The notes below the pieces were generated by a model. That model had not been told where the DNA came from. It made no database searches and was given only the letters and a program-made list of their open reading frames with translations. The translations under genes were made by a program, and so were the position numbers. A stretch of DNA of 64,000 nucleotides from Bacteroidales bacterium (lineage in GTDB: Bacteria > Bacteroidota > Bacteroidia > Bacteroidales > TTA-H9): contig JBMFOU010000005.1 in the NCBI GenBank assembly GCA_049969475.1, forward strand, positions 2,034-66,033, written 5' to 3'. Shown piece by piece: positions 2,766 to 23,888 of the stretch (its first letter is position 1; every line of letters starts with the position of its first letter).

Positions 2766-2773
2766 TAAATTTG
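2766..2773 (+). promoter_or_regulatory. candidate -7 promoter box (TAAATTTG) for the polysaccharide locus
   Basis: TAnnTTTG match 50 nt upstream of ATG 2824. It is the only such box in the 164-nt gap after uvrB. Confidence 0.4.
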
Positions 2774-2823: not shown

Positions 2824-3210
2824 ATGAAATCCAAAATTCTAGCCATAGACGACGAGCAGAGTATCAGATTATTACTTGAAAACTACCTTGGAAAAAACTA
2901 CGAGGTGGTTACTAAAAGTAATGGAGAAGAAGGTTTGATCTGGCTTGAAAAGAACATTCCCAACCTTATCATTTGCGACATTCAGATGCCTAAAATGGAT
3001 GGTTATGAGTTCATTGAAAAGGTGAGGGCCTCAGGCTTTCATAAACACACTCCCATCATCATGCTTTCAGGTGAAGAAAGCAGTGAAAGCAGGGTAAGAT
3101 GCTACCGGCTGGGAGCTCAGGACTTTTTGGTAAAACCTTTCAATGTACTTGAACTCGAGGAGCTTATCAAGAAGAACCTCAATCCTATACATTATGCCAT
3201 TGAATGGTAA
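2824..3210 (+). CDS. stand-alone response-regulator receiver (CheY-like)
   Basis: 128 aa, receiver domain only. D9-D10 acidic pair, acceptor D52 (IICDIQMP), S82 and K104 (LVKPF) are all present. Confidence 0.9.
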   Translation: MKSKILAIDDEQSIRLLLENYLGKNYEVVTKSNGEEGLIWLEKNIPNLIICDIQMPKMDGYEFIEKVRASGFHKHTPIIMLSGEESSESRVRCYRLGAQDFLVKPFNVLELEELIKKNLNPIHYAIEW

Positions 3211-3222
3211 AAAATACAGCCT

Positions 3223-4413
3223 ATGATACCCCTTAAAAAAGAACATTACACAATTCTTTATATAGGTGGCGATACGGGTATAAAGGAAGCTTTCGAGCGG
3301 GACCCCCGAATCAGTCATATTACGGTAGAAAATGGATTGGAAGCTTTGGACGCCTTGCAAAAACACAGCGAGATAGACGGAATAGTGTGTGAAATGTTCC
3401 TCCCGGGAGGCACTGGGTTGGAACTTTACGAATTCTTAAGCAAGTCTGAATTCGCCACTAAATTAAAACTTCCTTTTATCATTGTTGTACACGATTTTGA
3501 TCCCAATTTGTATAAAAAAGCCTTTTGGGCAGGGGTAGATGATTTTTATCTTGCCCCACTCAATCATGATAATCTTTTGTATCGACTTGATTTTATCAAA
3601 GAATACAAGGAGAAACATACCCAAAATCTGGGCCAGGAGGTGAAGCTGAAGCCCTACAAAATGGATTGGAAAAAACGGGCCTTCGATATTGTCTTTGCGA
3701 GCATTGCCCTGATCTTGGTCTCCCCTATTTTACTACTAGCAGCCTTGGCTATTTGGGTGGAGTCAGGGTTCAAAGGCAAAGTATATTACATCTCCAAAAG
3801 ATTTGGCAGATACGAAGTATTCGATTTCTATAAGTTGCGTACTATGTACCTTGATGCTGACAAAAGGTTAAAGGATCTCAAACACCTCAATCAATATGCT
3901 GACCTGATCGATGAGGACAAAGACGAGCCCTGTCCAAGATGTGCTCAATTACCAGCGGGGCAGTTTTGTTCGCAACCCCTCAACTATGGAAATTCTAAAA
4001 TATGTGAATACTGGTTCCTAGAAAAGAAAAAGAAGAAAAATCAGGCTGCATTCATAAAGATTAAAGACGATCCGCGCATTACCAAAGTTGGTAAAATACT
4101 CAGAAATACCAGTATTGATGAATTGCCCCAGCTTATCAATGTGTTAAAAGGCGATATGTCGATTGTGGGCAACCGTCCACTTCCCCTTTATGAAGCAAAC
4201 ATGTTGACTACTGATCAATATAGTAAACGTTTCGGTGCGCCCGCCGGAATTACCGGTCTCTGGCAAGTGGAGCTCAGAGGCAAAAAAGGGAAAATGTCGG
4301 AAGAAGAAAGAAAGATGCTCGACAACAACTATGCCGACAATCACTCTTTCTGGGGTGATATCAAACTCATTCTGAGAACCATCCCCGCACTTTTCCAGAA
4401 AGAAAACGTGTAA
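3223..4413 (+). CDS. degenerate receiver domain fused to a phosphoglycosyl transferase (bacterial sugar transferase family)
   Basis: 396 aa. Residues ~9-125 follow the receiver pattern, but E57 replaces the acceptor Asp (IVCEMFLPG) and Ala replaces the conserved Lys (YLAPL). Residues ~150-396 carry PGT hallmarks: a membrane helix (AFDIVFASIALILVSPILLLAALAIW), KLRTM, and DDPRITKVGKILRNTSIDELPQLINVLKGDMSIVGNRP. A Cys-bearing insert occupies residues ~222-278. Confidence 0.88.
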   Translation: MIPLKKEHYTILYIGGDTGIKEAFERDPRISHITVENGLEALDALQKHSEIDGIVCEMFLPGGTGLELYEFLSKSEFATKLKLPFIIVVHDFDPNLYKKAFWAGVDDFYLAPLNHDNLLYRLDFIKEYKEKHTQNLGQEVKLKPYKMDWKKRAFDIVFASIALILVSPILLLAALAIWVESGFKGKVYYISKRFGRYEVFDFYKLRTMYLDADKRLKDLKHLNQYADLIDEDKDEPCPRCAQLPAGQFCSQPLNYGNSKICEYWFLEKKKKKNQAAFIKIKDDPRITKVGKILRNTSIDELPQLINVLKGDMSIVGNRPLPLYEANMLTTDQYSKRFGAPAGITGLWQVELRGKKGKMSEEERKMLDNNYADNHSFWGDIKLILRTIPALFQKENV

Positions 4414-4414
4414 G

Positions 4415-5182
4415 ATGAACAAGATTTTTAGGATATGCCTTCTTTTCCTGGCCCTTGTGCCGGGCTTTAATTTATCAGGACAAAACAATGCGGGAGGGGG
4501 AGATTTTAGTTTCGACCCCATTATCGACGACATTGCCAAACATATCCCCCCGCTAGAAGCGCTTATAGATTCTGCCATCGCCAATTCTCCCTATCTGAAG
4601 TTCAGGGATGCGCAAATTGTGGTTAACCATTACAAATACATTATCGAAAAGAATCAGTTGCTTAGGGATATTGGTTTTAGCATAGAGGCCCGTTACGGAC
4701 GTTTCGACAATTGGTCTACCAACGAAGGAGCTGGAGGAATACCTGTATATGTTGGTAGCACCCGCGATGAGTGGAGATATGGAGCAGGTGCCTACATTAA
4801 AATTCCGTTGTTCGACATTACAAATCGTAAAACCACCATAAATTTGGCTAAAAAAGAAGTAGAGCAAGCCGTTAATCATCGCAACGAATTGATTCACGAA
4901 ATAAGAAAGGACGTTATCGTGCAATACAACGAACTGTTGATGCGACAACGCTTGATGAAAATAGCCAGTGATAATCAGATTACAGCCGAGATACAGTTGC
5001 GGATGGCAGAAAAGCAATTTCAGAATGGGCAACTACCCTTAGGCGAAATGGCCCGAATGATGGACATTATGGCACGGGCTAAAGCGGAATACGAACAGCA
5101 AAAAACTGCCTTTATTACTGCTTACAGTTTGCTTGAAATTACAACAGGTGTTAAATTTAACCTTTTAAATAAGCTTCAGTAA
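4415..5182 (+). CDS. half-length TolC-like (outer membrane efflux protein repeat) protein
   Basis: 255 aa. Signal peptide, then one copy of the OEP repeat (LEALIDSAIANSPYLKFRDAQI..., beta segment, then long helices to the C-terminus). About half the size of a normal TolC-family protomer. Confidence 0.7.
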   Translation: MNKIFRICLLFLALVPGFNLSGQNNAGGGDFSFDPIIDDIAKHIPPLEALIDSAIANSPYLKFRDAQIVVNHYKYIIEKNQLLRDIGFSIEARYGRFDNWSTNEGAGGIPVYVGSTRDEWRYGAGAYIKIPLFDITNRKTTINLAKKEVEQAVNHRNELIHEIRKDVIVQYNELLMRQRLMKIASDNQITAEIQLRMAEKQFQNGQLPLGEMARMMDIMARAKAEYEQQKTAFITAYSLLEITTGVKFNLLNKLQ

Positions 5183-5185
5183 GGT

Positions 5186-7858
5186 ATGAATCTGGTCAGA
5201 ATACTCAAGCTTTTTCAACGCAATCTGCCACTGCTCATTGGGGTGCCGCTAGTGCTGGTGGCAATTGCAAAATATCTGACCAGAAATCCCACCTTAAAGT
5301 ATGAATCAGAAACCACTATATACACAGGTCTGGCTTCAGGATATACTTTAGAGCAAAGTAAAGGCTTCAACTTATTTGCTACAAACAATGCTTTTGATAA
5401 TCTCATCAATATCATAAAAAGCCGTGAGGTAGCTTCTGAAACAGGGATTCGCCTGTTTACCATGTATCTCATGATGGATAAGCCCGATAGCAGGATTTTA
5501 AAAGTAAACTGGGAAAACCTTCAAAAAAGAACTCCGGCGCACATCAAGGCTCTTTTGATAAAAAAAGGGCAGATGGAACTTTCAGCCGGAACATTCGGAA
5601 ATCAATTCAGTGACACAATTTTTCTTGTAAACAACGATTTCGTTGTTGATGATAAATTATTTCATTTAGTCAAGCCTGATGAAACTATTTTCAGTATAGC
5701 CAAGCAATACAATGTATCGGTAAGCGAATTACTGAATATCAACAATTTAACAAGTTACTACTTAAATCCTGGAAGCAAAATCATTGTTAAAGATGTAAGC
5801 GATGGGAGCCCGGAAGAAAAGATGCAACTTTTCGATAGCGCCAATGTTCAGAAAAAAAGAGACCTCAACAAGGATTTATATGAAAAGAATGTGCAAAAGC
5901 TGATGCAATATGCATATGCTAATGACACAAACTATCTCTATGGTCTTTTGAATTCGGGCAATCCTTATTTCGGCATCAAAGCCATACAGTCAGTAACTGT
6001 AAAAAGAGTTCAGAGCAGTGATCTTATAAATATCAAATATACTTCGTTCGATCCCGGAATTTGTCAGCAGACTCTGATAATTCTCACCGAAGTATTTATT
6101 CGAAAATTTAAATCGGTTAATGAGAACCAATCAGATGCTGTTGTAAGATACTTTATTAACGAGGTTAATAAAGCTGCTGTTCGTTTGCGCCAAGCAGAAG
6201 ATCGTTTATTGGAGTTTAACAAGACGAACAATATTATCAATTACTATGAACAAAGTAAGGCAGTAGCCAACATGAAGGAAGACCTTGATCAAAAATACAG
6301 TGAATCGAGGATGAATTATGAGGCAGCGGCTGCTGTTCTTCAGAAACTTGAAGAAAAGCTGGGCGTTCAGGGGCAAATTCAGCTGAAAACCGATCAAATT
6401 GTCAAAACGCGCAATCGTCTATCAGAAATTACTTCTAATATCACATTGACAGAGGTTTATAACGATCCAGATCCCAAAAACCGGGCAAAACTTGAAGAAT
6501 TGAAAAGCGAAGCTGCACGGCTTAAAAAACAGTTGGAGGATTATGTTTCGCAACTTTATACTTACACCAACACTATCGATGGCCTCCCCTTGAATGACTT
6601 ACTTCAGCAATGGCTCGTAAATGTTATTAAATACGAGGAGAGTAAGGCCACCATGGAGGTTTTAGCTCAACGCATACAAGAATTTTACGAGTATTACAAA
6701 ACGTTTGCTCCTTTAGGTGCTACACAGAAACGCATTGAGCGCGAGATTAATGTTGCAGAGCAAGAATACCTCTCACTCCTGCACAGCCTGAACCTTTCCA
6801 AACTCAAACAACAAGACATAGAGCTTTCCTCTAACATCAAAGCTGTAGACCCGCCATATTATCCACTAAAACCCTTAAAAGGCAAAGAAGGCATTTTGGT
6901 AATTGTGGCGGGTTTGTTCGGTTTCATTTTCGTGGCCTTCCTCATAATAGCTCTTGAATACCTTGACAACACTATCCGAACGGCTGACCGACTCGAAGAA
7001 CTTTCAAAGCTCAGAATTGCCGGTGTCTTTCCCCGCATTATCAACCGCTATGCTGCATACAATTTACCTTTTATTACCAACCGCCTTATTGAACTTACTG
7101 TACACAATATACGCCTTAACGTAAGACAAAACCAAAAACACGTAGGGCCTGCGCTAGTCATTATTTTCAGCTCCCTAAAAAAAGAAGGCAAAACATTCAT
7201 GGGAGCACGGCTTGCAGAAAAGTTCAGGGAATTTGGTGAACAAACCGCATTTTTAACTTTCGTTACCTCCAATAACTTAAATGATAATGAATGGCTTACT
7301 CAGCCAGGTTTTTCTGGTGAGCCTGTTGAAGACAATTCATTACAGGACGACCTCAGAAAGAAAAGCACCAAGGGTAAAGCCAACTTGCGTTCACAAAAGA
7401 AAAAAACTGTTCGCAGGACAACTGCTGAAAAGTTGATTCCCATGCCCATTGCTCATGATGACAATTTCAGATATCTGGTAGATAAGAATTTTACCGAAGT
7501 TTCATCGCTCTCTGAACTGAATTATTTGGAAAGGAGACCTATATTTAGCGACTACAAATTCATTTTGCTCGAATTGCCGGGAACCATTTACAACCCCTAC
7601 CCCATCGATTTAGTTGCACAAGCTGACTCATCTTTAATGATCACACGAAGCAACCGATCGTGGAAAAAAGCTGACACATTAGCTTTATTCACTATGGTCA
7701 AGATTTTCAAAGAGAAACCATTGGCTTTCTTAAATGGGGTAGAAATAGAAGAAATAGAAAACATCTTAGGAGACCTTCCACGTCAAAGAAGTCGCCTTAG
7801 AAGAATATTTAAAAAATTGATTACATTGCAATTAAAAGATAGGACCGCTATAAAATAA
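5186..7858 (+). CDS. Wzc/GumC-like polysaccharide co-polymerase with an embedded LysM domain and a degenerate P-loop domain
   Basis: 890 aa. Wzz-type N-terminal TM, a LysM motif at residues 159-203 (FHLVKPDETIFSIAKQYNVSVSELLNINNLTSYYLNPGSKIIVKD, nt 5660-5794), and a long coiled coil. A Pro-rich PPYYPLKPLKGKE motif precedes a second TM. The C-terminal domain has a Walker-A-like SSLKKEGKT but no Tyr-rich tail. Confidence 0.8.
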   Translation: MNLVRILKLFQRNLPLLIGVPLVLVAIAKYLTRNPTLKYESETTIYTGLASGYTLEQSKGFNLFATNNAFDNLINIIKSREVASETGIRLFTMYLMMDKPDSRILKVNWENLQKRTPAHIKALLIKKGQMELSAGTFGNQFSDTIFLVNNDFVVDDKLFHLVKPDETIFSIAKQYNVSVSELLNINNLTSYYLNPGSKIIVKDVSDGSPEEKMQLFDSANVQKKRDLNKDLYEKNVQKLMQYAYANDTNYLYGLLNSGNPYFGIKAIQSVTVKRVQSSDLINIKYTSFDPGICQQTLIILTEVFIRKFKSVNENQSDAVVRYFINEVNKAAVRLRQAEDRLLEFNKTNNIINYYEQSKAVANMKEDLDQKYSESRMNYEAAAAVLQKLEEKLGVQGQIQLKTDQIVKTRNRLSEITSNITLTEVYNDPDPKNRAKLEELKSEAARLKKQLEDYVSQLYTYTNTIDGLPLNDLLQQWLVNVIKYEESKATMEVLAQRIQEFYEYYKTFAPLGATQKRIEREINVAEQEYLSLLHSLNLSKLKQQDIELSSNIKAVDPPYYPLKPLKGKEGILVIVAGLFGFIFVAFLIIALEYLDNTIRTADRLEELSKLRIAGVFPRIINRYAAYNLPFITNRLIELTVHNIRLNVRQNQKHVGPALVIIFSSLKKEGKTFMGARLAEKFREFGEQTAFLTFVTSNNLNDNEWLTQPGFSGEPVEDNSLQDDLRKKSTKGKANLRSQKKKTVRRTTAEKLIPMPIAHDDNFRYLVDKNFTEVSSLSELNYLERRPIFSDYKFILLELPGTIYNPYPIDLVAQADSSLMITRSNRSWKKADTLALFTMVKIFKEKPLAFLNGVEIEEIENILGDLPRQRSRLRRIFKKLITLQLKDRTAIK

Positions 7859-7872: not shown

Positions 7873-9243
7873 ATGATTAAAGTCATCCTCAATAAAACTA
7901 TCTACAACAAAAACTTTCTTTCATTGGCAGGGAATGCCGTGTCGGCAGTTTTTGGTCTAATCGTATTTATGCTTCTGGCACGTACTTTCTCTGCCGATAT
8001 TTTTGGGGAATGGGTAATATATCTTTCTACTGCGACTTTTCTTGAAATGTTCAGGTTTGGGCTCACCCGAACCGGCCTCATCCGTTTTCTTTCTGGAGCC
8101 ACCGGAGAAGAACGTGCGCGACTGAAAGGCACCAATTACGTCGTTGGATTATCTATCACGGCATTAATTTTCATTGTATTATACATCTCCCTACTCATTT
8201 TCCACAAGCCCATCATGGCTTCGCCTTACCGGCTTTTTTTCCTGTGGTATCCCTTGCTGGCCCTAGTCAATTTACCCTTTAACAACGCGCTGAGTGTCTT
8301 GCAAGCAGAAGAAAAATTTCTACAGATACTGATTATTCGTGCGCTCAATGTGGCTTCTTTTGCGTTGCTTCTGGCTCTCAACTATTTCTTGCAATGGAAC
8401 TTGAGTCTTCAACATCTCATATGGTGGCATTTATTTCTCAATTTGTCTACTTCAATGTATGTCATCATAAAAAAATGGGATGGCCTGTTTGATTTGAAAT
8501 ATTTTAACAGGGATACCTTAAAAACCCTTCTAAGGTTCGGAAAATATACAACAGTAACGCTAATTGGCAGTAATTTGCTTCGCAGTGCTGATACCTTTAT
8601 TCTTAGCATTAGTCCCTTGGGAAGCGCCGCTGTGGCCACCTATTCCATCCCGCTCAAACTCATGGAGATGCTTCAGATTCCTTTGAGAAGCTTTGCTGCA
8701 ACGGCTTTTCCCAAACTTTCAAAGGCAAGTATCAATGAGGAATGGGGAAAATTTAAGTTCTTTTTTTATCACTACACAGGGGTGGTTACCTTTCTGTTTC
8801 TTCCGGTAATCATTTTAGGTTTCTTTTTTGCCAAATATTTTGTATGGCTGCTTGGAGGTGCAGAATATTTGAAGCCTTTCCCTGCCACCGGCGAAAGCAC
8901 CGTATTTTTATTTCAGGTATTTGTGCTTTATGGGTTTCTGCTTCCCCTCGATCGTATGACCGGTGTAGGTTTGGATGCCATCAACAAACCTGAAAAGAAC
9001 TTTTACAAAATCATTGCCATGGTAACGGCCAATGTCATCGGCGACCTTGTAGCTGTTTTTATTTTCAAAAAACTACTTTACGTTGCCTATGCCACTTGGC
9101 TATTTACATTTATAGGGGTTATTTTTGGTTATTCATATCTTAACAGGGAAGTTCCCCTCCATTTTATTAAAATCTTCTCTATAGGATGGAAGTCACTCAT
9201 ACAATATTTTTTCAGGAAACAAACCGAGTATGAACTAAAATGA
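7873..9243 (+). CDS. oligosaccharide flippase (Wzx-like, MOP superfamily)
   Basis: 456 aa and highly hydrophobic with about 12-14 TM segments. Its position and pattern are typical of polysaccharide biosynthesis flippases. Confidence 0.78.
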   Translation: MIKVILNKTIYNKNFLSLAGNAVSAVFGLIVFMLLARTFSADIFGEWVIYLSTATFLEMFRFGLTRTGLIRFLSGATGEERARLKGTNYVVGLSITALIFIVLYISLLIFHKPIMASPYRLFFLWYPLLALVNLPFNNALSVLQAEEKFLQILIIRALNVASFALLLALNYFLQWNLSLQHLIWWHLFLNLSTSMYVIIKKWDGLFDLKYFNRDTLKTLLRFGKYTTVTLIGSNLLRSADTFILSISPLGSAAVATYSIPLKLMEMLQIPLRSFAATAFPKLSKASINEEWGKFKFFFYHYTGVVTFLFLPVIILGFFFAKYFVWLLGGAEYLKPFPATGESTVFLFQVFVLYGFLLPLDRMTGVGLDAINKPEKNFYKIIAMVTANVIGDLVAVFIFKKLLYVAYATWLFTFIGVIFGYSYLNREVPLHFIKIFSIGWKSLIQYFFRKQTEYELK

Positions 9244-10763
9244 AACCCCCGGTCATAAAAGACACCGGTAGTGTGATTTTGCAAAAACCCCTAGTTATAA
9301 CAGGCATTTTTGCACTCTCGGTGGTTTTTGCCTATCTCATTGGCACTTATGGAATAGCATTGGGAGGCATGCTCATAAGTGCTATTATTTTTATAGTCTA
9401 CTTCACCATTCAGGTTAAATACCCTCAGCTGGGTTTATACACGGCAATCGCAGTTGGATTTGTGTTGCTGGGAAGCACACGCTATTTTAAAACAGATTTA
9501 CCCATAGGTATGCTGATGGATGCATTGCTGGTGCTTACATTTCTGGCTTTGTTCTTTCATCATTTTCCTCGTCGAATCGATTGGAGCCCGGCCCGCAACC
9601 TTGCCACACTTCTTGCCTTCATTTGGCTAATGTACTGCCTATTGCAAATTGCCAACCCAGAAGCCCGAAGTACAGCTGCATGGTTTTCGGCAGTAAGACC
9701 CCTGGCTTTTTATCATTTTTTCTTTGTTGTACTGGCATTAATGTTTCTAACAACTCCTCAGAGAATCAGGATGATTTTTATTGTTTGGGGAATTTTCTCA
9801 ATTCTTGGTACCCTAAAGGGAGCCATGCAGTTGTGGATAGGCGTTGACCCTTATGAAAAGGCCTGGCTCGATGGAGGAGGGGCTATTACACACGTTCTCT
9901 TTGGCCGTCTCAGGGTATTTTCGTTTTATAGCGATGCAGGGCAGTTTGGTGCCAATCAAGCATATACTGGGGCGGTTTTCACCATGATTGCCCTGGCTGC
10001 TAAAAATAAAAAGGATAAAATATTCTTCTGGATAGTAGCTCTGGCCGGATTTTACGGAATGTTCATCTCGGGTACCCGTGGTTCATTGTTTGTGCCTTTT
10101 GCAGCTTTCGCCCTTTATTTCTTTCAAAGAAAGAATATTTATGTATTGACCAGTGGAATGTTTTTCGTAGTGTTGATTTTCATTTTCTTTAAATATACTA
10201 CGATTGGTCAGGGAAATTATCAAATAAACCGTATGCGCACGGCTTTTAATCCCGATGATCCCTCCCTTCAGGTACGTTTGGAGAATCAACGTAAGCTTAA
10301 AGTTTACATGGCTACACGTCCTTTTGGCGGGGGCTTAGGACATGGTGGGGTGAAAGCACAAAAATATACACCCAATGCGTTTTTGGCCAATGTTCCTACC
10401 GATAGTTGGTATGTTCTCATTTGGGTAGAAACGGGCATTATTGGTTTGATCTTGCATCTTGCCATTCAATTCATTACGCTGGGGTTGGCTAGTTATTATC
10501 TTATGTTCAGGCTTCGCGATCCCATTCTCATTTCACAAATGAGCGCCCTTTCATCAGGAATGCTGGGTATTATGTTAGCATCCTATGGAAACGCCATCAT
10601 AGGTCAGTTACCCACTTCCCCGCTGATTTACACTTCCATGGGCTTGTTGCTAAATTCTCTTACAGTTGATAAATATATCCGAATTAAATTAAGAAAGAAA
10701 AACCTGAGCGATCGGTATAAAAATCGCATGCACAAGTGCAAGCGATTAAGTAAGGCTGCCTAA
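9240..10763 (+). CDS. O-antigen ligase/polymerase family membrane protein (Wzy-like)
   Basis: 507 aa polytopic protein with a Wzy_C-like block (FISGTRGSLFVPFAAFALYFF). ATGA start/stop overlap with the flippase gene. Confidence 0.72.
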   Translation: MKPPVIKDTGSVILQKPLVITGIFALSVVFAYLIGTYGIALGGMLISAIIFIVYFTIQVKYPQLGLYTAIAVGFVLLGSTRYFKTDLPIGMLMDALLVLTFLALFFHHFPRRIDWSPARNLATLLAFIWLMYCLLQIANPEARSTAAWFSAVRPLAFYHFFFVVLALMFLTTPQRIRMIFIVWGIFSILGTLKGAMQLWIGVDPYEKAWLDGGGAITHVLFGRLRVFSFYSDAGQFGANQAYTGAVFTMIALAAKNKKDKIFFWIVALAGFYGMFISGTRGSLFVPFAAFALYFFQRKNIYVLTSGMFFVVLIFIFFKYTTIGQGNYQINRMRTAFNPDDPSLQVRLENQRKLKVYMATRPFGGGLGHGGVKAQKYTPNAFLANVPTDSWYVLIWVETGIIGLILHLAIQFITLGLASYYLMFRLRDPILISQMSALSSGMLGIMLASYGNAIIGQLPTSPLIYTSMGLLLNSLTVDKYIRIKLRKKNLSDRYKNRMHKCKRLSKAA

Positions 10764-10815
10764 AGAGATTAGTTTTTTACAAGATTTATTGCTAATTTAG
10801 CTCAAATTTATATTT

Positions 10816-11742
10816 ATGGAAAGTCAATCATCATTCCCGTTGGTTTCCATCATATCTATTAATTATGACCATCCTGAGGTAACCTGCCAGATGCTTGATT
10901 CTCTGCGTAAGATTACCTATCCCAATATTGAAGTTATTGTAGTTGACAATGCATCGCCTAATGATGATCCTTCCATAATTCCTGCGCAATTTCCTGAGGT
11001 GAAATTCATACAATTGGATAAAAATCTTGGATTTGCCGGGGGCAATAACGTAGCCATCCGGCAAGCCAAAGGAAAATACATCCTGCTTCTTAATAACGAC
11101 ACAGAGGTTACACCAGATTTTTTGGAACCCTTAGTGTCTAAATTGGAAAGTAACCCAGAGATTGGCGTGGTAAGCCCTAAAATTAAATTTTATCATACGC
11201 CTGATACACTGCAATTTACTATTATCACTCCTATCAATAAACTCACCGGGCGTAGCACGGGATTGGGATTTGGTGTAAAAGACGAAGGCCAATGGGAGTT
11301 TGATGCAGAAACTGCATACGCACACGGTGCGGCGATGATGATACCGAGGCATGTCATCGAAAAAGTAGGCTTGATGGCCGAGATCTACTTTCTCTATTAC
11401 GAAGAACTCGACTGGTGCTATCGCATAAGGCAAGCTGGATATAAAATATTTTATGTGCATAACTCTCTGATTTATCATAAAGAGTCTATTTCAACAGGTA
11501 GGATGAGCCCTACCAAGATTTATTGGATGAATAGGGCCCGCCTGCTCTACATTCGTCGCAACGTCAGGCAACCCATTCTTACCCTCTCTCTTCTGTATCA
11601 ATTCGTAATAGCTATTCCCAAAAATGCCCTAATGTATTTGCTGAAAGGTCGTATAGATTTATTTAACGCCTATCATAAAGCCGTGATGTGGCATTTTAAA
11701 AATTGGAACAACCCTCAAATATTTGATAATCCCAAACTATGA
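10816..11742 (+). CDS. family 2 glycosyltransferase
   Basis: 308 aa. VSIISINYD..., VVDNAS, NLGFAGGNN, LLLNNDT (DxD region), and YYEELDWCYR typical of rhamnosyl-type GT2 enzymes. Confidence 0.9.
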   Translation: MESQSSFPLVSIISINYDHPEVTCQMLDSLRKITYPNIEVIVVDNASPNDDPSIIPAQFPEVKFIQLDKNLGFAGGNNVAIRQAKGKYILLLNNDTEVTPDFLEPLVSKLESNPEIGVVSPKIKFYHTPDTLQFTIITPINKLTGRSTGLGFGVKDEGQWEFDAETAYAHGAAMMIPRHVIEKVGLMAEIYFLYYEELDWCYRIRQAGYKIFYVHNSLIYHKESISTGRMSPTKIYWMNRARLLYIRRNVRQPILTLSLLYQFVIAIPKNALMYLLKGRIDLFNAYHKAVMWHFKNWNNPQIFDNPKL

Positions 11743-12509
11743 GAAAATTGCATTTTAACAACGTTACCGATTACAGGCAAGCAGAAGACCTCAAACGGCT
11801 GGGGTATATTCTGGATCAGATAGCAACGCTAGGCCGCAAGCCTCTAAACATTCTGGAAATTGGTTGTGGCAACGGAAATATATGCTATCAGTTAGCTTAC
11901 GAAGGTCATAAAGTAAAAGGTATCGATCATGACGAGGATTCTATTGCCTATGGGAAAAGTCATTTTCAACACGATAATCTGGTATTCGAGGTCAAAGCCG
12001 CTGAAGATGTGGTGAATGGAAATGCCTATGAGGTAATTATTTGCAGCGAAGTGCTTGAGCATCTTTACCATCCAGAAGAGGTTATGAAAACCATTCCTCA
12101 CTTATTGGCAAACGAGGGTGTAGTTATTATAACAACTCCCAATGGAGTAGGCCCCAGAGAGCTATTCATTACCCGGCCAGTGCAATGGATTAAACATAAC
12201 AGCCGACTGCTCTATGCTCTATTAAAATTCGTCAAACGCCTGATGGGATACACTGGGGCTACAATTCAATCGAGCAGTTACTCGCTAGAACACGTTCAAT
12301 TTTTCAAACTGAAGGATCTCAAAAAAATGGCTCAAGCCAGCGGTTTACGTATCGTTGACATGAAACCCGCTTGTTTTCTCGAAAAAGTATTTCCTTTTAG
12401 TCTCATAACCCGCTTTTTCGTCTCCTTGCAGTGGTTCGACTGTAGGATTGCAAACGCTTTGCCTATTACGATAAGTAGCGGGTTTATGCTCACTTTAAAA
12501 AAGAGTTGA
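11739..12509 (+). CDS. class I SAM-dependent methyltransferase
   Basis: 256 aa. Motif I ILEIGCGNGN and post-I/II motifs (ICSEVLEHL). ATGA overlap with the upstream GT2 gene. Confidence 0.85.
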   Translation: MRKLHFNNVTDYRQAEDLKRLGYILDQIATLGRKPLNILEIGCGNGNICYQLAYEGHKVKGIDHDEDSIAYGKSHFQHDNLVFEVKAAEDVVNGNAYEVIICSEVLEHLYHPEEVMKTIPHLLANEGVVIITTPNGVGPRELFITRPVQWIKHNSRLLYALLKFVKRLMGYTGATIQSSSYSLEHVQFFKLKDLKKMAQASGLRIVDMKPACFLEKVFPFSLITRFFVSLQWFDCRIANALPITISSGFMLTLKKS

Positions 12510-12521
12510 AAACCCTCCCAA

Positions 12522-13445
12522 ATGGGGAAAAAAAACTGGCCACTTGTCTCAATTGTAACCGTCAATTACAATCAGACCGACACCACGCTCGAGCTGATTG
12601 AATCCCTGATTAAAATTACCTATCCCAACATCGAATTGCTGGTGGTTGACAACGATTCACCGGAAGCCGATGCTATGCGTATCCGACAAAAGTACCCCAG
12701 GGTTATTTTAGTGCAAAGCCCCATAAATTATGGTTTTGCTGCGGGTAACAACCTGGGCATTATGCGGGCCCGGGGAAAGTATGTAATGATTTTGAACAAT
12801 GATGTAATAGTAACACCAGGTTTTCTTGAACCGCTGGTTGAACTATGTGAATCAAATGCACACATCGGAGCCATCAGCCCCAAAATTCGATTTTACTACG
12901 AACCACAGGTAATTCAATATGCCGGTTTCACTTCCATACATCCCATTACAATGAGAAATAAGGCTTTGGGGTGGAAGGAAAAAGACCGCGGACAATACGA
13001 CTCTGAGGGTACGACTGGATTTTGCCATGGTGCGGCCATGCTGGTTCCCATGGATGTGATTCGCAAGGTAGGCATGATGTCGTATATTTATTTTCTGTAT
13101 TATGAAGAAGCCGATTGGTGCGAGCGCATTAAAAGGGCTGGTTATGAGCTTTGGTACACACACCGTTCCATGGTTTACCATAAAGAGAGTATATCGACGG
13201 GTAAAGATAGCCCTCTAAAAGCTTATTATCTTACCAGAAACCGTATTATATTTTTAAGAAGAAATGCAAAGGGAAAAAATCTATGGTTAGGCGTTCTATA
13301 CCAGGTGTTGGTTGCTGTTCCTCGCAATGCATTGAAATACTTGATAAAAGGCAATTTCAACTATGTTTCAGCTTTTGTAAGGGGTGTTATGTGGCATTTT
13401 TTTCACCTAAAAGACCCCTCCATTTTTGAAAATCCAACTTTATAA
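12522..13445 (+). CDS. family 2 glycosyltransferase (paralog of 10816-11742)
   Basis: 307 aa, colinear with the 10816 product and roughly half the residues identical by eye (VSIVTVNYN, VVDNDS, NYGFAAGNN, ILNNDV, YYEEADWCER). Confidence 0.9.
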   Translation: MGKKNWPLVSIVTVNYNQTDTTLELIESLIKITYPNIELLVVDNDSPEADAMRIRQKYPRVILVQSPINYGFAAGNNLGIMRARGKYVMILNNDVIVTPGFLEPLVELCESNAHIGAISPKIRFYYEPQVIQYAGFTSIHPITMRNKALGWKEKDRGQYDSEGTTGFCHGAAMLVPMDVIRKVGMMSYIYFLYYEEADWCERIKRAGYELWYTHRSMVYHKESISTGKDSPLKAYYLTRNRIIFLRRNAKGKNLWLGVLYQVLVAVPRNALKYLIKGNFNYVSAFVRGVMWHFFHLKDPSIFENPTL

Positions 13446-13492
13446 TTTGTAATTTTAAAGGAAAAACCAGAATCCCTCCAAATTTTTCTTCC

Positions 13493-14698
13493 ATGGATGT
13501 ACTTACATTAATAATCAATATCTTGCAAACCGCCTTGTGGATTTACCTGGCCGTCATCGGGCTTTATTTGTTGCTATTTGCTCTATCCAGTCTTCTGCCT
13601 CACAAAAATGACTATCACGGCGATGATACACCCAAAAGAATAGCAGTGCTTATTCCTGGCTATAAAGAAGACAATATCATTGTAGAGATAGCACGACTGG
13701 CTTTGCAACAGAATTATCCCAAGGACAAGTACGACGTGGTAATCATTGCCGACTCGTTTAAACCAGAAACACTTGAGGCTTTGCGCAAACTGCCGATTAA
13801 AGTTATTGAGGTAAGTTTTGAAATTAGTACCAAGGCCAAGGCCCTTACAGAAGCAGTCAAGCAATTGCCCGACACCTATGACCTTTGCATAATACTGGAT
13901 GCAGATAATGTGATGGAGCCTGAATTTTTACAAAAAATTAGTAAGGCGTGGAAGCCTGGTATGCTTGCCATACAAGGACATCGGATTGCCAAAAATATGA
14001 ACACTCCGTTTGCTATTCTTGATGCTATCAGCGAAGAAATTAACAACCAAGTATTTCGCAAAGGCCATCGTCGGTTAGGCCTTTCGGCTGCTATTATTGG
14101 CAGCGGGGTGGCGTTCGACTATAAATATTTCAGGGATTTAATTCCCCAAGTTACGGCCGTGGGCGGCTTCGACAAAGAAATAGAGCTGAAAATGCTGCGC
14201 GACAGGCAAGTAATTTATTACCTTCACGATGCCTATGTGTATGATGAAAAGGTACAGAAGCCAGAAACCTTCCAGAATCAGCGACGCAGATGGTTGTCGG
14301 CTCAGCTTCATTACCTGAGAAAATACTTTCTACACTCTCTGGGTTACCTAATTTTTAAAGGGAATATAGAATATTTTAACAAAGCTTTTCAATTTCTCCA
14401 ATTACCACGAGTACTCTTATTAGGGATAGTGGTTACTTTATTCCCTTTAATTATTGTTCTCAATTTCGCAATCAACCAGCCTTTGTGGGTCAATCGTTGG
14501 ATTACTCTGGCCTTGATTATTATCTTTGCTATTTGGATTAGTGTTCCACGCAAATTTTACAACCGCAATCTATGGATTGCCCTCACCCACCTTCCCAAGG
14601 GTATTTTCATGATGTTCCTCAGTCTCATGAAGACTAAAGGAGCCAACAAGCGATTTATTCACACCGTCCACGAAACCACACATACCGAAATCCATTAA
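13493..14698 (+). CDS. membrane-embedded GT2, synthase-like (Q-x-x-R-W motif)
   Basis: 401 aa. N-terminal TM, GT-A core (VLIPGYKED, ILDADN), QNQRRRW motif, then about 4 C-terminal TM helices. Confidence 0.85.
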   Translation: MDVLTLIINILQTALWIYLAVIGLYLLLFALSSLLPHKNDYHGDDTPKRIAVLIPGYKEDNIIVEIARLALQQNYPKDKYDVVIIADSFKPETLEALRKLPIKVIEVSFEISTKAKALTEAVKQLPDTYDLCIILDADNVMEPEFLQKISKAWKPGMLAIQGHRIAKNMNTPFAILDAISEEINNQVFRKGHRRLGLSAAIIGSGVAFDYKYFRDLIPQVTAVGGFDKEIELKMLRDRQVIYYLHDAYVYDEKVQKPETFQNQRRRWLSAQLHYLRKYFLHSLGYLIFKGNIEYFNKAFQFLQLPRVLLLGIVVTLFPLIIVLNFAINQPLWVNRWITLALIIIFAIWISVPRKFYNRNLWIALTHLPKGIFMMFLSLMKTKGANKRFIHTVHETTHTEIH

Positions 14699-14712
14699 AA
14701 AATTCAACGACT

Positions 14713-16560
14713 ATGATCAGATTCATTGGATGCCTCGATCCCAAATGCAATATTTCCAACTGCGTGGGTCAACTTCCTATCATCATGACTTCTCATGGCC
14801 CAATAGCTCTCGACCAGGGACTACATTTCTGTGATTGCGATGAATACAACATCGTATGTTTTGGTGAGATATACAATTTAGATGACTTGCGAAAGCAATT
14901 CAACATTGCATCTGATCATCGCTGCAAAGTCATTCACGATCTTTTTGTAATTAAGGGAGATGATTGGATAAAACTTATCGACGGAGAATTTACCGTATTG
15001 ATGTACAATCAAGAAGAGATGTACATTTATCGTGACCGACATGGAGCCGGCCCTCAGGTGTATTATACCGGTACCCACTTTGCCAGTCATCCCGTTTTGC
15101 TGCGCAAAATCTCAGGATTTGAGGCCAAACCAAACCCTAATACTATTGCAACTTTTTTAGGCATCGGCTACATACCAGCACCTGAAACGGCCCTGGAAGG
15201 TGTAAAAAAAATACCTGCCGGTCACCTACTTTATCAGAAAAAAAATGAACAAAATCTCCGGCGCTTATATAGGTTCGAAGAGTTTTTATCTTCGACAGGC
15301 ACTTATAAAGGCACAATTGAAGAGGGAACAGAGCAATACAGGCAGCTGCATCAGCAGGTGATAAACGATAGGCTTGGGCAGGTTCAGAAAGTAGGTTTGC
15401 TTTTGAGCGGTGGCTACGACTCTGGTGGAAATATTTATTCGCTGCGACAAATATACTCCGGGCCAGCCGAAGCCATTTCCATTGGATTTAAAGACAATCC
15501 ATGGACAGAAATTCCCCTGGCTAAACTCATGGCCGATGAATTTAAAACTACCTTTCACAGCTATGAAATTGACGGCAGTGAAATAAAAGAACTACCATTG
15601 GCAGTCAAGCAATTAGGTGATCCTTTCCAGGAAGGTGGACTGATGGTGAACTTTATAGCCATGAAAACTGCCGCAGCTCTTGGATTCGACATCATATTGG
15701 GAGGAGATGGAAACGATCAGCACTTTGGTACTTCAGCCAAAGAATTGGGCCTCAATTGGCGAATCCGGAAAATGGGCTTACAATGGGCTCAGCAACTCTT
15801 CAGCCGCTTGGGAAAATGGAGCTTGTTCGACACGAGTCCTACCCTTTTCAGACTGCGTTTCCACAACGATAAGATTTTACACATCATCGAAAGCGATTGT
15901 TTTGGATTTCCGCTTCATCAGGCTCGTAAAATCATACCTTCCACTCAGTTAGCAGGTTATGAATATTCCAAAGTCTTTCCCAAAGATTTCGAAAGTTTCG
16001 ACCATTTTTATTTTGCAAGAAACTACCTAATTGATATAGAACAAGTTGTTAATGAGGTAATCCTTTTTAAAGCTAGCCGAATGGCTGAACTTTTTGGAAA
16101 CAAAATAACATTCCCCTACATGGCCACGCCTGTCTTCAATTTCTTAAAAACCCTTCCTAGATCTATGAAATGCAAAGGAACACCCGAAGAAATTTCGAAA
16201 GGGAAAGGTGTAGCCAAGTTTCTCCACAAAAACTATCTTAAGCCCGTGTTACCTGCTGAAATTACCTCACGGAAAAAGCAAGGTGGTTTTGCCCCTCTAC
16301 CCTTGTTTTTCAAAGATCCAACCCAGCGACAGCTCATCCAGGCTGTAATTCGCAAATCGGGCTTTTACCGGCAATTTGCGGATAAGCGTCTTATTGAAGC
16401 CTTTTTCAGAGAATATGAAGCCAAAGCACTTAACGAGCATGCCTGGTTCTGGTATCGTCAGTTGAGTGCCTTTAAATACTTCAACCTCTTGGTAATTGCC
16501 CTTTGGTGGGACATTCATATTGATGGAATGGAGGGAAATTTACTGACAGATTTCACCTAA
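14713..16560 (+). CDS. asparagine synthetase B-like amidotransferase/adenylating enzyme without the N-terminal Cys nucleophile
   Basis: 615 aa. PP-loop LLLSGGYDSGG and an AsnB-type C-terminal domain. The N-terminus is MIRFIGC rather than MCG. Confidence 0.8.
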   Translation: MIRFIGCLDPKCNISNCVGQLPIIMTSHGPIALDQGLHFCDCDEYNIVCFGEIYNLDDLRKQFNIASDHRCKVIHDLFVIKGDDWIKLIDGEFTVLMYNQEEMYIYRDRHGAGPQVYYTGTHFASHPVLLRKISGFEAKPNPNTIATFLGIGYIPAPETALEGVKKIPAGHLLYQKKNEQNLRRLYRFEEFLSSTGTYKGTIEEGTEQYRQLHQQVINDRLGQVQKVGLLLSGGYDSGGNIYSLRQIYSGPAEAISIGFKDNPWTEIPLAKLMADEFKTTFHSYEIDGSEIKELPLAVKQLGDPFQEGGLMVNFIAMKTAAALGFDIILGGDGNDQHFGTSAKELGLNWRIRKMGLQWAQQLFSRLGKWSLFDTSPTLFRLRFHNDKILHIIESDCFGFPLHQARKIIPSTQLAGYEYSKVFPKDFESFDHFYFARNYLIDIEQVVNEVILFKASRMAELFGNKITFPYMATPVFNFLKTLPRSMKCKGTPEEISKGKGVAKFLHKNYLKPVLPAEITSRKKQGGFAPLPLFFKDPTQRQLIQAVIRKSGFYRQFADKRLIEAFFREYEAKALNEHAWFWYRQLSAFKYFNLLVIALWWDIHIDGMEGNLLTDFT

Positions 16561-16572
16561 ACAGACACATGT

Positions 16573-17721: not shown

Positions 17722-17739
17722 AATATTCCTTATTCATCT

Positions 17740-18960: not shown

Positions 18961-18972
18961 AAAATTTTGGTT

Positions 18973-19599
18973 ATGAGTTTAAAACAACGTTTAAAATCAG
19001 ACCCCAGGATCAAAAAATTCGTTCTTTGGCTCATTACCCCGGCCAAACGCCCACGTCCCCGTTGGTGGGTCAGAATTTTCGTTAATCCATTTTTTCATAA
19101 AAGAGGAAAGGGTTCACTTATAAGGCGCTATACCCGGATGGATGTATTTCCCTGGAATAGATTTGAACTGGGCCGCGATAGTACCATTGAGAGCTTTTGT
19201 GTAGTAAACAACGGGGCTGGTGACGTAATCATTGGCGACGAATGTCGTGTAGGCATTGGTACGGTTATTATTGGTCCTGTGAAAATGGGCCATGGAAGTG
19301 GAACGGGTCAGCATGTATTCATTGGGGGATTTAACCATGGTTATAAGGATGGAACCCAAAATTCCAAGTATCAACCTCTGGATATTAAACCCGTGGTTAT
19401 TGAAGACGAAGCTCATATCGGGGCTAATTCCGTTGTTCTTGCAGGTGTAACCATAGGAAAACGCACCCAGATAGGAGCCGGAAGCGTGGTTACTAAAAGC
19501 ATTCCGTCCTTTTGCATTGCAGCTGGAAACCCATGCCGGGTTATCAAAAAATATAACTTTGAAACGGGCGAGTGGGAAAGAGTTGATAAAACTAACTAA
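18973..19599 (+). CDS. hexapeptide-repeat (left-handed beta-helix) acyl/acetyltransferase
   Basis: The ORF-track start at 18967 is TTG, so I used the ATG at 18973. Hexapeptide repeats are visible (IGDECRVGIGTVIIGPV, IGANSVVLAGVTIGKRTQIGAGSVV). Confidence 0.85.
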   Translation: MSLKQRLKSDPRIKKFVLWLITPAKRPRPRWWVRIFVNPFFHKRGKGSLIRRYTRMDVFPWNRFELGRDSTIESFCVVNNGAGDVIIGDECRVGIGTVIIGPVKMGHGSGTGQHVFIGGFNHGYKDGTQNSKYQPLDIKPVVIEDEAHIGANSVVLAGVTIGKRTQIGAGSVVTKSIPSFCIAAGNPCRVIKKYNFETGEWERVDKTN

Positions 19600-19613
19600 A
19601 AAAAATTCTGACC

Positions 19614-23368: not shown

Positions 23369-23404
23369 ACGAAACAAAATTATTAGCTTAACAATGATAT
23401 TGCT

Positions 23405-23833: not shown

Positions 23834-23888
23834 AACTCTAATTTTCAGCAAGAAAACAATCACCAACCTATCATAAAACTTTTGCTGT

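What the first reader, a model, noticed from the sequence alone, without database searches (positions are those of the whole stretch)
2824..4413. Polysaccharide initiation enzyme fused to a pseudo-receiver domain, preceded by a canonical single-domain receiver
The locus opens with a fully canonical CheY-like receiver (D9/D10, D52, S82, K104). Twelve nt later comes a second receiver-like domain fused to the priming phosphoglycosyl transferase. In the fused copy the acceptor Asp is Glu (IVCEMFLPG), the first acidic-pair residue is Gly (IGGD) and the conserved Lys is Ala (YLAPL), so it probably cannot be phosphorylated. The PGT catalytic domain also carries about 35 extra residues between KLRTM and DDPRIT. 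These contain four cysteines (CPRC-x8-C-x11-C, nt 3931-4005), which looks like a small zinc-ribbon insert. Together this suggests that the first committed step of repeat-unit synthesis is gated post-translationally, for example by the phosphorylatable receiver docking on the pseudo-receiver. That differs from the UpxY/invertible-promoter control known for Bacteroides capsules. No kinase is encoded in the locus.
Basis: partly seen in the sequence, partly recalled or inferred. Interest (0 to 1): 0.65.

Follow-up and report, generated by a model that had tools for sequence, protein, structure and literature searches.

The report
Response regulator paired with pseudo-receiver sugar-priming enzyme
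A polysaccharide gene cluster from a Bacteroidales bacterium opens with a normal phospho-signalling protein followed by the pathway's first enzyme carrying a dead copy of the same signalling domain; this pairing is conserved across the phylum Bacteroidota and suggests that sugar-coat synthesis is switched on or off at the enzyme itself.

Summary
Gene 2824-3210 is a canonical single-domain response regulator. Gene 3223-4413 is a small monotopic phosphoglycosyl transferase (PGT) with an N-terminal receiver-fold domain lacking four of the five catalytic residues (G15, G16, E57, V89, A111). Its catalytic domain carries a roughly 44-residue insert with four cysteines.

None of this is private to the window:
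- G15 and all four Cys are invariant in 121 close homologues.
- The N-terminal domain is receiver-derived in every subgroup of the Bacteroidota clade.
- In 41 Bacteroidota loci, a stand-alone regulator lies directly upstream of every PGT with a pseudo-receiver (36 of 36).
- Some relatives have a phosphorylatable receiver of the same regulator family fused directly to the PGT, with no separate regulator in the two with readable upstream DNA.
- Several relatives encode a hybrid kinase just upstream.

The likeliest mechanism is that the phosphorylated regulator binds the PGT and gates the first committed step of a Wzx/Wzy pathway. Binding through the pseudo-receiver is plausible but unproven.

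The general idea is known from EpsW/EpsZ in Myxococcus and from STAS-PGT in Anabaena. Receiver-PGT fusions have been catalogued. I found no description of the conserved pseudo-receiver-plus-regulator pair or of the all-or-none Cys4 module. I rate it a new variant of a known kind. "Zinc ribbon" is not supported as a fold assignment.

The parts
2824..3210 (+). Stand-alone single-domain response regulator (128 aa), canonical D9/D10, D52, S82, K104, KPFN motif
   Evidence: ORF; Response_reg 97.4 bits; orthologues directly upstream of the PGT in 38 of 41 related loci, catalytic residues conserved in most.
3223..3618 (+). Pseudo-receiver domain of the fusion protein (res 1-132): (beta-alpha)5 fold with G15, G16, E57, V89, A111 at the five catalytic positions
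   Evidence: G15 is invariant in 121/121. Position 57 is E in 99 and D in 21 of 121. No Lys is conserved at position 111.
3619..3762 (+). Linker (res 133-148) and re-entrant membrane helix of the monotopic PGT (res 149-180, with S167-P168)
   Evidence: helix 149-180; P168 invariant; start of the Bac_transf match at residue 151.
3763..4413 (+). PGT catalytic domain (res 181-396) with intact K204/R206, D283-P-R285, D299-E300 dyad, R318-P319
   Evidence: Bac_transf 182.7 bits; WbaP and PglC structures, E 1e-27 to 3e-23; these residues invariant in 65 sequences; PglC is the top Foldseek hit, E 1.8e-10.
3898..4026 (+). Insert in the catalytic domain (about res 226-268) holding the Cys4 module C237-x2-C240-x8-C249-x11-C261-E262 (Cys codons nt 3931-4005)
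   Evidence: four Cys invariant in 121/121. (across 150 cluster representatives: 63 with 4 or more Cys, 44 with a long insert and no Cys, 39 with no insert, 4 intermediate). (only the 4 Cys plus the following Glu are conserved). (module alone folds at pLDDT 84).
4415..5182 (+). Half-size TolC/OEP-like outer-membrane protein, conserved next gene of the module
   Evidence: OEP 63 bits; same position in many related loci.
5186..7858 (+). Wzz/GNVR chain-length-determinant-like protein with an inserted LysM domain (890 aa), conserved fourth gene of the module
7873..20807 (+). Rest of the Wzx/Wzy-dependent polysaccharide operon: Wzx flippase, Wzy polymerase, GT2 and GT4 glycosyltransferases, methyltransferase, Asn-synthase-like protein, hexapeptide acyltransferase
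31066..32577 (-). Orphan histidine kinase (503 aa); only a candidate phosphodonor, with no evidence linking it to the regulator
   Evidence: HATPase_c 73 bits, HisKA 21 bits, below the gathering score.

Best explanation
The locus encodes a two-protein switch on the first committed step of a Wzx/Wzy-dependent exopolysaccharide pathway.

The components are:
- The 128-aa protein is a genuine phosphorylatable single-domain response regulator with no output domain of its own.
- Its target is the enzyme encoded 12 nt downstream. This is a small monotopic phosphoglycosyl transferase that transfers a sugar-1-phosphate to undecaprenyl phosphate.
- The enzyme's N-terminus is a receiver domain that has lost phosphotransfer chemistry (a pseudo-receiver).

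The proposed sequence is as follows. A histidine kinase or Hpt phosphorelay phosphorylates the regulator. This relay is encoded elsewhere in this genome but sits directly upstream in several relatives. The phosphorylated regulator then binds the transferase. The most likely mode is a receiver:pseudo-receiver heterodimer on the cytoplasmic face of the membrane. Binding changes the enzyme's activity.

The four-cysteine insert in the catalytic domain is a separate small folded module. It probably binds a metal ion and is not required for the regulator link.

Shown: the domain identities, the loss of catalytic residues, conserved adjacency across the phylum, the existence of direct receiver-PGT fusions from the same regulator family, and neighbouring kinases in relatives.

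Inferred: physical binding, the docking surface, the sign of regulation, and metal binding.
For: Domain identities and register.

Family-wide conservation of the degenerate state: G15 is invariant in 121/121, G16 is present in 100/121, position 57 is E in 99 and D in 21, and there is no conserved Lys. The N-terminal domains of all three clade subgroups are receiver-derived (hhalign 99.4-99.7%).

Gene-neighbourhood evidence:
- A canonical stand-alone regulator lies immediately upstream in 38 of 41 Bacteroidota loci. These span Bacteroidales, Flavobacteriales, Cytophagales, Chitinophagales and Sphingobacteriales.
- A regulator is upstream in 36 of 36 loci with a pseudo-receiver, against 2 of 5 without one. 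Fisher p is about 0.001, computed by hand from those counts; the loci are not phylogenetically independent.

Rosetta-stone evidence:
- P0183, P0191, P0234 and P0243 carry a canonical receiver (75-92 bits) fused to the same PGT subfamily.
- These receivers score 76-100 bits to the window regulator, against 41-58 bits for unrelated receivers from the same loci.
- The two whose upstream region could be read have no separate small regulator. Instead they have nearby hybrid kinases and sigma-54 regulators.

Kinase and phosphorelay neighbours:
- Hybrid HisKA-HATPase-REC-Hpt kinases lie directly upstream of the regulator in L019, L032 and L036, and about 3.4 kb upstream in L024.
- HK-REC proteins are upstream in L004 (adjacent) and L011 (about 2 kb).
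- An Hpt-like ORF is found in L013.

The operon is tightly packed, with gaps of 12, 1 and 3 nt.

Precedents from the literature:
- The phosphorylated single-domain regulator EpsW activates the PGT EpsZ by direct interaction (PMC12802240).
- The N-terminal STAS domain of the Anabaena PGT All4160 gates it by phosphorylation (PMC13555669).
- Receiver:pseudo-receiver heterodimers are a discussed mechanism (PMC12632262).
Against: - No binding, phosphorylation or activity data exist for any member.
- No multimer model could be made with the tools available.
- Gene adjacency and fusions show functional linkage, not the docking surface.
- In L038, and possibly L032, the regulator precedes a PGT with no pseudo-receiver. 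In the canonical fusions the receiver takes the pseudo-receiver's place. The regulator could therefore act on the catalytic domain or membrane-proximal region, with the pseudo-receiver doing something else.
- Small monoPGTs are reported to work as monomers (PMC12802240, discussion). The dimerisation logic proposed for EpsZ may therefore not transfer.
- No kinase is linked to the regulator in this genome.
Confidence: 0.55

Rival explanations
1. The regulator and the PGT are co-transcribed, but the regulator acts on another target. Candidates are the Wzz/LysM co-polymerase-like protein, the flippase, or a protein outside the locus; it could also act as a phosphate sink. The pseudo-receiver would then be a constitutive structural or oligomerisation domain of the PGT that no longer takes part in signalling.
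For: - The OEP-like and Wzz-LysM genes are also conserved in the module, so adjacency alone does not single out the PGT.
- The pseudo-receiver lacks all phosphotransfer chemistry.
- Pseudo-receivers that act constitutively are known (PMC12632262).
Against: - Direct fusions of the regulator-family receiver to the PGT point to the PGT specifically.
- The regulator stays next to the PGT in loci where no OEP or Wzz homologue was detected downstream, for example L015 and L016.
- The regulator accompanies every pseudo-receiver PGT, 36 of 36.
Confidence: 0.2
2. The regulator binds the PGT catalytic domain or its membrane-proximal region directly. This is the position the fused canonical receiver presumably contacts in the fusion variants. 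The pseudo-receiver would then be an autoinhibitory or competing intramolecular mimic that the phosphorylated regulator displaces.
For: - L038, and possibly L032, has the regulator upstream of a short PGT with no pseudo-receiver.
- In P0183, P0191, P0234 and P0243 a single receiver sits directly before the re-entrant helix.
- Glu at the acceptor position with Ser/Thr retained in most family members fits a locked, active-like mimic. Glu as a phosphomimetic is discussed in PMC12632262.
Against: - There is no structural or interaction evidence either way.
- L032 may be a mis-called or truncated ORF in a metagenome bin.
- Receiver-receiver pairing through the alpha4-beta5-alpha5 face is the commonest receiver interaction (general knowledge, not tested here).
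Confidence: 0.2
3. The Cys4 insert is the main regulatory element. It would be a redox or metal sensor that switches the enzyme, and the receiver domains would be secondary.
For: - The four Cys are invariant in 121/121 close homologues.
- Across the clade they are kept or lost as a set: 63 representatives have 4 or more, 44 have none, and 4 are intermediate.
- The module folds confidently on its own, at pLDDT 84.
Against: - The module occurs without regulator or pseudo-receiver (L026, L029, L031).
- It is absent from many regulator-plus-pseudo-receiver loci (L009, L011-L013, L020-L023, L030-L042). The two features are therefore independent.
- The all-or-none pattern fits a structural metal site equally well.
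- There is no match to any known sensor.
Confidence: 0.1

Closest known systems
EpsW / EpsZ of Myxococcus xanthus (Schwabe et al., mBio 2025, PMC12802240)
   Same: A phosphorylatable single-domain response regulator controls Wzx/Wzy exopolysaccharide synthesis post-translationally by acting on the initiating Bac_transf-family PGT.
   Different: - EpsZ is a large monoPGT, with a four-helix membrane bundle and a cytoplasmic DUF, and is proposed to be activated by regulator-assisted dimerisation.
- The enzyme here is a small monoPGT whose only extra domain is a pseudo-receiver.
- EpsW is fed by the Dif chemosensory kinase. Here, relatives show hybrid HK-Hpt phosphorelays.
- The lineages differ (Myxococcota versus Bacteroidota), and the regulator gene here is fixed immediately upstream of the PGT.
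Receiver-domain fusions of small monoPGTs catalogued by sequence-similarity network (O'Toole, Imperiali & Allen, PNAS 2021; known to me only as cited in PMC12802240, since the paper itself was not held)
   Same: The Response_reg + Bac_transf architecture on one polypeptide.
   Different: As far as I could read, that catalogue notes the architecture only.
All4160 (STAS-Bac_transf) with HenR and Alr3423 in Anabaena PCC 7120 (Mol Microbiol 2026, PMC13555669)
   Same: A small PGT with an N-terminal signalling domain whose state gates polysaccharide synthesis post-translationally.
   Different: - The regulatory domain there is STAS, phosphorylated on Ser by a partner-switching kinase.
- Here it is a receiver fold that cannot be phosphorylated, and it is paired with a His-Asp regulator.
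Bacterial pseudo-receivers and receiver:pseudo-receiver heterodimers such as WhiI/BldM and CmrT/CmrR (review: Bourret et al., J Bacteriol 2025, PMC12632262)
   Same: - A receiver fold lacking catalytic residues.
- Glu at the acceptor position, which is the commonest substitution.
- A canonical partner encoded alongside.
   Different: The reviewed cases are transcription factors. Here the pseudo-receiver is attached to a membrane enzyme, and no glycosyl transferase is mentioned in that review.
PglC of Campylobacter and the catalytic domain of WbaP (PDB 8e37, 8g1n, 8t53)
   Same: The catalytic core: re-entrant helix, K-x-R-x-M, DPR, Asp-Glu dyad and PRP-like motif.
   Different: Those enzymes have no receiver-like domain. 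They also lack the roughly 44-residue Cys4 insert between the KxRxM helix and the DPR motif.

Membership tests
Canonical response-regulator receiver (the 2824-3210 protein) | Pfam Response_reg match above the gathering score, in a single-domain protein | tested here: met
   97.4 bits against a cut-off of 30.2, covering residues 5-115 of 128.
Canonical response-regulator receiver (the 2824-3210 protein) | Catalytic quintet: acidic pair, acceptor Asp, Ser/Thr, Lys | tested here: met
   D9, D10, D52, S82 and K104, read from the translation. All five are conserved in about 30 of the 38 upstream orthologues; D52 is kept in 34, S/T and K in all 38.
Canonical response-regulator receiver (the 2824-3210 protein) | Phosphorylated by a cognate kinase or Hpt | not testable with these tools
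   There is no kinase in the locus. An orphan HK lies at 31066-32577. Hybrid HK-Hpt genes lie upstream of the regulator in L019, L024, L032 and L036 (adjacent except L024, about 3.4 kb away).
Pseudo-receiver (N-terminal domain of the 3223-4413 protein) | Receiver (beta-alpha)5 fold | tested here: met
   AF2 model with five strand-helix units over residues 9-132 at pLDDT 82-95, except 66 for residues 71-80. Foldseek matches receiver domains at TMt up to 0.82. hhalign against the regulator family gives 99.7%. The Pfam hit is 30.1 bits, just below the cut-off.
Pseudo-receiver (N-terminal domain of the 3223-4413 protein) | Lacks residues needed for phosphotransfer | tested here: met
   G15, G16, E57, V89 and A111 stand at the five positions. 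G15 is invariant in 121/121, and Lys is never conserved.
Small monotopic phosphoglycosyl transferase (PglC-like, Bac_transf) | Bac_transf domain with one re-entrant membrane helix and no N-terminal four-helix bundle | tested here: met
   Bac_transf at 182.7 bits. There is a single long helix at 149-180 containing S167-P168. PglC is the top structural match.
Small monotopic phosphoglycosyl transferase (PglC-like, Bac_transf) | Catalytic Asp-Glu dyad and conserved K/R and DPR motifs | tested here: met
   D299-E300, K204, R206, D283-P284-R285 and R318-P319 are invariant in 65 sequences. Assigning these residues a catalytic role rests on published PglC work recalled from memory.
EpsW/EpsZ-type regulator-PGT system | Single-domain phosphorylatable regulator associated with the initiating PGT of a Wzx/Wzy pathway | tested here: met
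   Wzx and Wzy present; adjacency conserved.
EpsW/EpsZ-type regulator-PGT system | The PGT is a large monoPGT whose cytoplasmic DUF lacks the dimerisation beta-hairpin | tested here: not met
   The enzyme is a small monoPGT with a pseudo-receiver in place of a membrane bundle plus DUF. It may work in a similar way, but it is not a member of that system.
EpsW/EpsZ-type regulator-PGT system | Direct, phosphorylation-enhanced interaction that stimulates PGT activity | not testable with these tools
   This needs interaction and activity assays or a multimer model with interface confidence.
Zinc ribbon | Two CxxC-type knuckles on beta-hairpins, and similarity to known zinc ribbons | tested here: not met
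   There is one CxxC plus two single Cys (C-x2-C-x5-8-C-x10-11-C-E). The model shows a short helix at the CxxC, a hairpin and a helix. There is no PDB sequence hit (E 5.6) and no significant fold hit (best are LIM and ClpX at E about 9). Metal binding itself was not tested.
Bacteroides capsule locus with UpxY/UpxZ and an invertible promoter | Inverted repeats flanking the promoter; UpxY/UpxZ as the first genes | tested here: not met
   No inverted repeats flank the 2660-2823 intergenic region. The first genes after uvrB are the regulator and the PGT.

The most novel reading that the evidence does not exclude
Across Bacteroidota, exopolysaccharide synthesis may be gated at the priming enzyme by a dedicated receiver:pseudo-receiver heterodimer switch. 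A phosphorelay-fed single-domain regulator would pair with a catalytically dead paralogue tethered to a monotopic membrane enzyme. In about four in ten of the sampled clusters, a lineage-specific Cys4 metal or redox module inside the catalytic domain would provide a second, independent input. This would be the first case of a pseudo-receiver acting as the docking adaptor of a membrane enzyme rather than of a transcription factor.
Probability: 0.3. Interest if true: 0.7.

Novelty: new variant of a known kind. Interest (0 to 1): 0.55.

Why it matters
- How bacteria ration undecaprenyl phosphate and nucleotide sugars among competing glycan pathways is an open question. Post-translational control of the priming PGT has only recently been shown, in one myxobacterium and one cyanobacterium.
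- This family would extend that control to small monoPGTs and to a whole phylum that includes gut, oral and marine Bacteroidota.
- The family offers a natural experimental series: split regulator plus pseudo-receiver, direct canonical fusion, and no receiver at all. These variants make the mechanism directly testable.
- It also gives bacterial pseudo-receivers, whose mechanisms are called 'a mystery' in a 2025 review (PMC12632262), a concrete enzyme-linked case with an obvious read-out.

Tried and rejected
- Reading O'Toole et al. 2021, the catalogue of PGT fusions: not held by PMC id or by DOI. My knowledge of it is second-hand from PMC12802240.
- Modelling the regulator-PGT complex: no multimer tool is available, and the structure tool returns no PAE or coordinates. 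An interface could not be judged, so I did not attempt a linker-fusion model.
- First kinase search: phmmer with two hybrid kinases against the window ORFs found none. Pfam later found an HK at 31066-32577, so the phmmer negative was a false negative.
- Naming the Cys4 fold: a profile search of PDB sequences and Foldseek of the isolated module gave nothing significant. I rejected 'zinc ribbon' as a fold assignment.
- Promoter: a Bacteroidetes -7-like TAnnTTTG lies at 2766-2773, but the motif occurs at chance frequency in the window (59 observed against 61 expected). It is only a positional lead.
- Invertible promoter: no flanking inverted repeats.
- Literature searches for a characterised Bacteroidota regulator-PGT pair found none.
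- Linkage between the Cys4 insert and the regulator or pseudo-receiver: rejected, because each occurs without the other.
Full report
**What is in the window**

The window has two tightly packed plus-strand ORFs directly after uvrB (632-2659): 2824-3210 (128 aa) and 3223-4413 (396 aa), 12 nt apart.

- The first protein is a strong Response_reg match at 97.4 bits. It has all five catalytic residues: D9, D10, D52, S82 and K104.
- The second protein carries Bac_transf at 182.7 bits (residues 151-391 on profile positions 1-178). It also has a Response_reg match at 30.1 bits, a hair under the 30.2 cut-off.
- Downstream, with gaps of 1-3 nt, come a half-size OEP/TolC-like protein and an 890-aa Wzz/GNVR protein with an inserted LysM domain.
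- After these come Wzx, Wzy, several GT2 and GT4 transferases, a methyltransferase, an Asn-synthase-like protein and an acyltransferase, up to about 20.8 kb.
- A beta-helix protein with a T9SS sorting tail closes the locus at 22.5 kb.

This is a Wzx/Wzy-dependent polysaccharide locus. The nearest homologues are from Bacteroidales metagenome bins, at 93% identity.

**The fused receiver-like domain**

An AlphaFold2 model built on 65 homologues gives a clean five-fold beta-alpha alternation over residues 9-132 at pLDDT 82-95, except 66 for residues 71-80. A linker follows, then a long re-entrant helix at 149-180, then the PglC-like catalytic domain. Foldseek returns PglC first (E 1.8e-10) and then many receiver domains, for example 3t6k at TMt 0.82.

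A profile-profile alignment of 121 fused domains against 39 stand-alone regulators (99.7%, E 4.6e-26) fixes it:

| Fused domain | Regulator |
|---|---|
| G15 / G16 | D9 / D10 |
| E57 | D52 |
| V89 | S82 |
| A111 | K104 |

. The domain is therefore a pseudo-receiver as defined in the review PMC12632262.

This state is conserved, not an accident of this genome. Among 121 sequences of at least 51% identity:

- G15 is invariant and G16 is present in 100.
- Position 57 is Glu in 99 and Asp in 21.
- The Lys position is never a conserved Lys.
- The Ser/Thr position is kept in 88. The window protein has Val there.

**The cysteine insert**

Relative to S. enterica WbaP, query residues 221-277 (57 aa) replace 13 residues.

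- C237, C240, C249 and C261 are invariant in 121 of 121 sequences.
- Over 150 cluster representatives at 50% identity, the region falls into four classes: a long insert with four or more Cys (63), a long insert with none (44), no insert (39), and intermediates (4).
- The cysteines are therefore kept or lost as a set.
- In 41 diverse modules averaging 32% column identity, only the four Cys and the Glu after the last one are conserved.
- Modelled alone, the module folds at pLDDT 84 as a CxxC turn with a short helix, a beta-hairpin and a helix.
- It has no significant sequence match in the PDB. It also has no significant fold match; the best hits are LIM and ClpX zinc domains at E about 9.

A structural metal site is a fair inference. 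'Zinc ribbon' is not a supported classification.

The module is independent of the receiver system:

- L026, L029 and L031 have it with neither regulator nor pseudo-receiver.
- Many regulator-plus-pseudo-receiver loci lack it.

**Comparative evidence linking the regulator to the enzyme**

A pattern scan of one genome per species returned 40 Bacteroidota loci. They include Flavobacterium, Winogradskyella, Draconibacterium, Sediminibacterium, Cyclobacterium, Mucilaginibacter, Hymenobacter, Rufibacter, Dawidia, Chitinophaga, Prevotella and Bacteroides bins. One more locus came from a protein look-up.

- In 38 of the 41 loci, a small canonical regulator lies immediately upstream of the PGT. Most show the DD...D...S...KPFNP signature.
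- Every PGT with an N-terminal domain has the regulator upstream (36 of 36), against 2 of 5 without one. Fisher p is about 0.001, but the loci are not phylogenetically independent.
- The N-terminal domains of the no-Cys and no-insert subgroups are also receiver-derived (99.4-99.5%). The pseudo-receiver is therefore old in this clade.

Four representatives (P0183, P0191, P0234, P0243) instead carry a fully canonical receiver fused straight to the PGT, at 75-92 bits. These receivers score 76-100 bits to the window regulator, against 41-58 bits for unrelated receivers from the same loci. Where the upstream DNA is available (L084, L086), there is no separate small regulator. Hybrid kinases and sigma-54 regulators lie nearby, and L086 also has an H-NOX gene. 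This is a classic gene-fusion argument that the stand-alone regulator works with the PGT.

**Where the phosphate comes from**

The window has no kinase in the polysaccharide locus. Pfam does find an orphan HisKA/HATPase_c kinase at 31066-32577 on the minus strand. Nothing links it to the regulator.

In relatives, the source is encoded beside the regulator:

- HisKA-HATPase-REC-Hpt hybrid kinases lie directly upstream in L019, L032 and L036, and about 3.4 kb upstream in L024.
- HK-REC proteins are upstream in L004 (adjacent) and L011 (about 2 kb).
- An Hpt-like ORF abuts the regulator in L013.

This supports the regulator being the terminal acceptor of a phosphorelay.

**Mechanism**

The best-supported reading is that the phosphorylated regulator binds the PGT and changes the rate of the first committed step.

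- Docking on the pseudo-receiver as a receiver:pseudo-receiver heterodimer is attractive. The two domains are homologous, and the pseudo-receiver keeps a conserved Glu at the acceptor position plus Ser/Thr in most members. Such heterodimers are also discussed for other pseudo-receivers (PMC12632262).
- This docking is not shown. L038, and perhaps L032, pairs the regulator with a PGT lacking the domain. The canonical fusions put a single receiver in the pseudo-receiver's place. A direct contact with the catalytic or membrane-proximal part, with the pseudo-receiver as an internal mimic, therefore remains a live rival.
- The sign of regulation is unknown.

**Comparison with what is known**

- Schwabe et al. 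(PMC12802240) showed that phosphorylated EpsW activates the large monoPGT EpsZ in M. xanthus by direct interaction. They also noted, citing O'Toole et al. 2021, that small monoPGTs can carry receiver domains.
- The Anabaena STAS-Bac_transf protein All4160 is gated by phosphorylation of its N-terminal domain (PMC13555669).

The concept and the bare architecture are therefore known. I found no description of three things:

- that the fused receiver of the Bacteroidota clade is a conserved pseudo-receiver;
- that it is invariably partnered with a separate canonical regulator, with canonical fusions as a minority alternative;
- the all-or-none Cys4 module.

I could not read O'Toole et al. directly, so some of this may be covered there.

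**Verdict**

The finding is a new variant of a known kind, of moderate interest. A good natural series of variants makes the mechanism testable.

Noticed in passing
window 4415-5182 (+): A 255-aa protein made of a single OEP/TolC-type repeat (63 bits, full profile), about half the size of TolC, with no PDB sequence match. It sits directly after the PGT in a majority of the related Bacteroidota loci (23 of 41). It may replace Wza as the outer-membrane exporter of this pathway.
   Followed up: partly
window 5186-7858 (+): An 890-aa Wzz/GNVR co-polymerase-like protein with a LysM peptidoglycan-binding domain inserted at residues 160-202. Its C-terminal region of about 250 aa has a Walker-A-like SSLKKEGKT motif but no Pfam hit and no terminal tyrosine cluster. 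It is conserved as the fourth gene of the module.
   Followed up: partly
window 31066-32577 (-): An orphan histidine kinase (HATPase_c 73 bits, weak HisKA) with no adjacent response regulator, next to a radical-SAM gene at 29937-31064. It is a candidate partner for the orphan regulator, but no evidence links them.
   Followed up: partly
window 20848-22506 (+): A right-handed beta-helix protein with a type IX secretion C-terminal sorting domain closes the polysaccharide locus. It may be a secreted glycanase or lyase for the same polymer.
   Followed up: no
window 22728-24935 (+): An arsenic-resistance-like operon: an ArsR-family HTH protein, a small ORF with no Pfam hit, a low-molecular-weight phosphatase/ArsC-type protein, and an SBF/ACR3-type transporter.
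   Followed up: no
L086:429-3468 and L084:1-4873: In genomes where a canonical receiver is fused to the PGT, the neighbouring genes are PAS hybrid kinases and a divergently transcribed sigma-54 activator. L086 adds an H-NOX gene, and L084 a FIST sensor gene. This hints at gas or small-molecule control of polysaccharide priming.
   Followed up: no
window 2824-4413: The regulator and the PGT are in the same reading frame, separated only by TAA plus four codons. Read-through would give a regulator-pseudo-receiver-PGT protein. This is probably coincidence, since orthologous pairs overlap or use other frames.
   Followed up: partly
window 2766-2773: A TAAATTTG sequence matching the Bacteroidetes -7 promoter consensus TAnnTTTG lies 50 nt upstream of the regulator start codon. 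The motif is at chance frequency window-wide (59 observed, 61 expected).
   Followed up: yes
window 51133-52941 (-) and 37481-38455 (-): Two sizeable ORFs (602 aa and 324 aa) gave no Pfam hit at E <= 1e-5.
   Followed up: no
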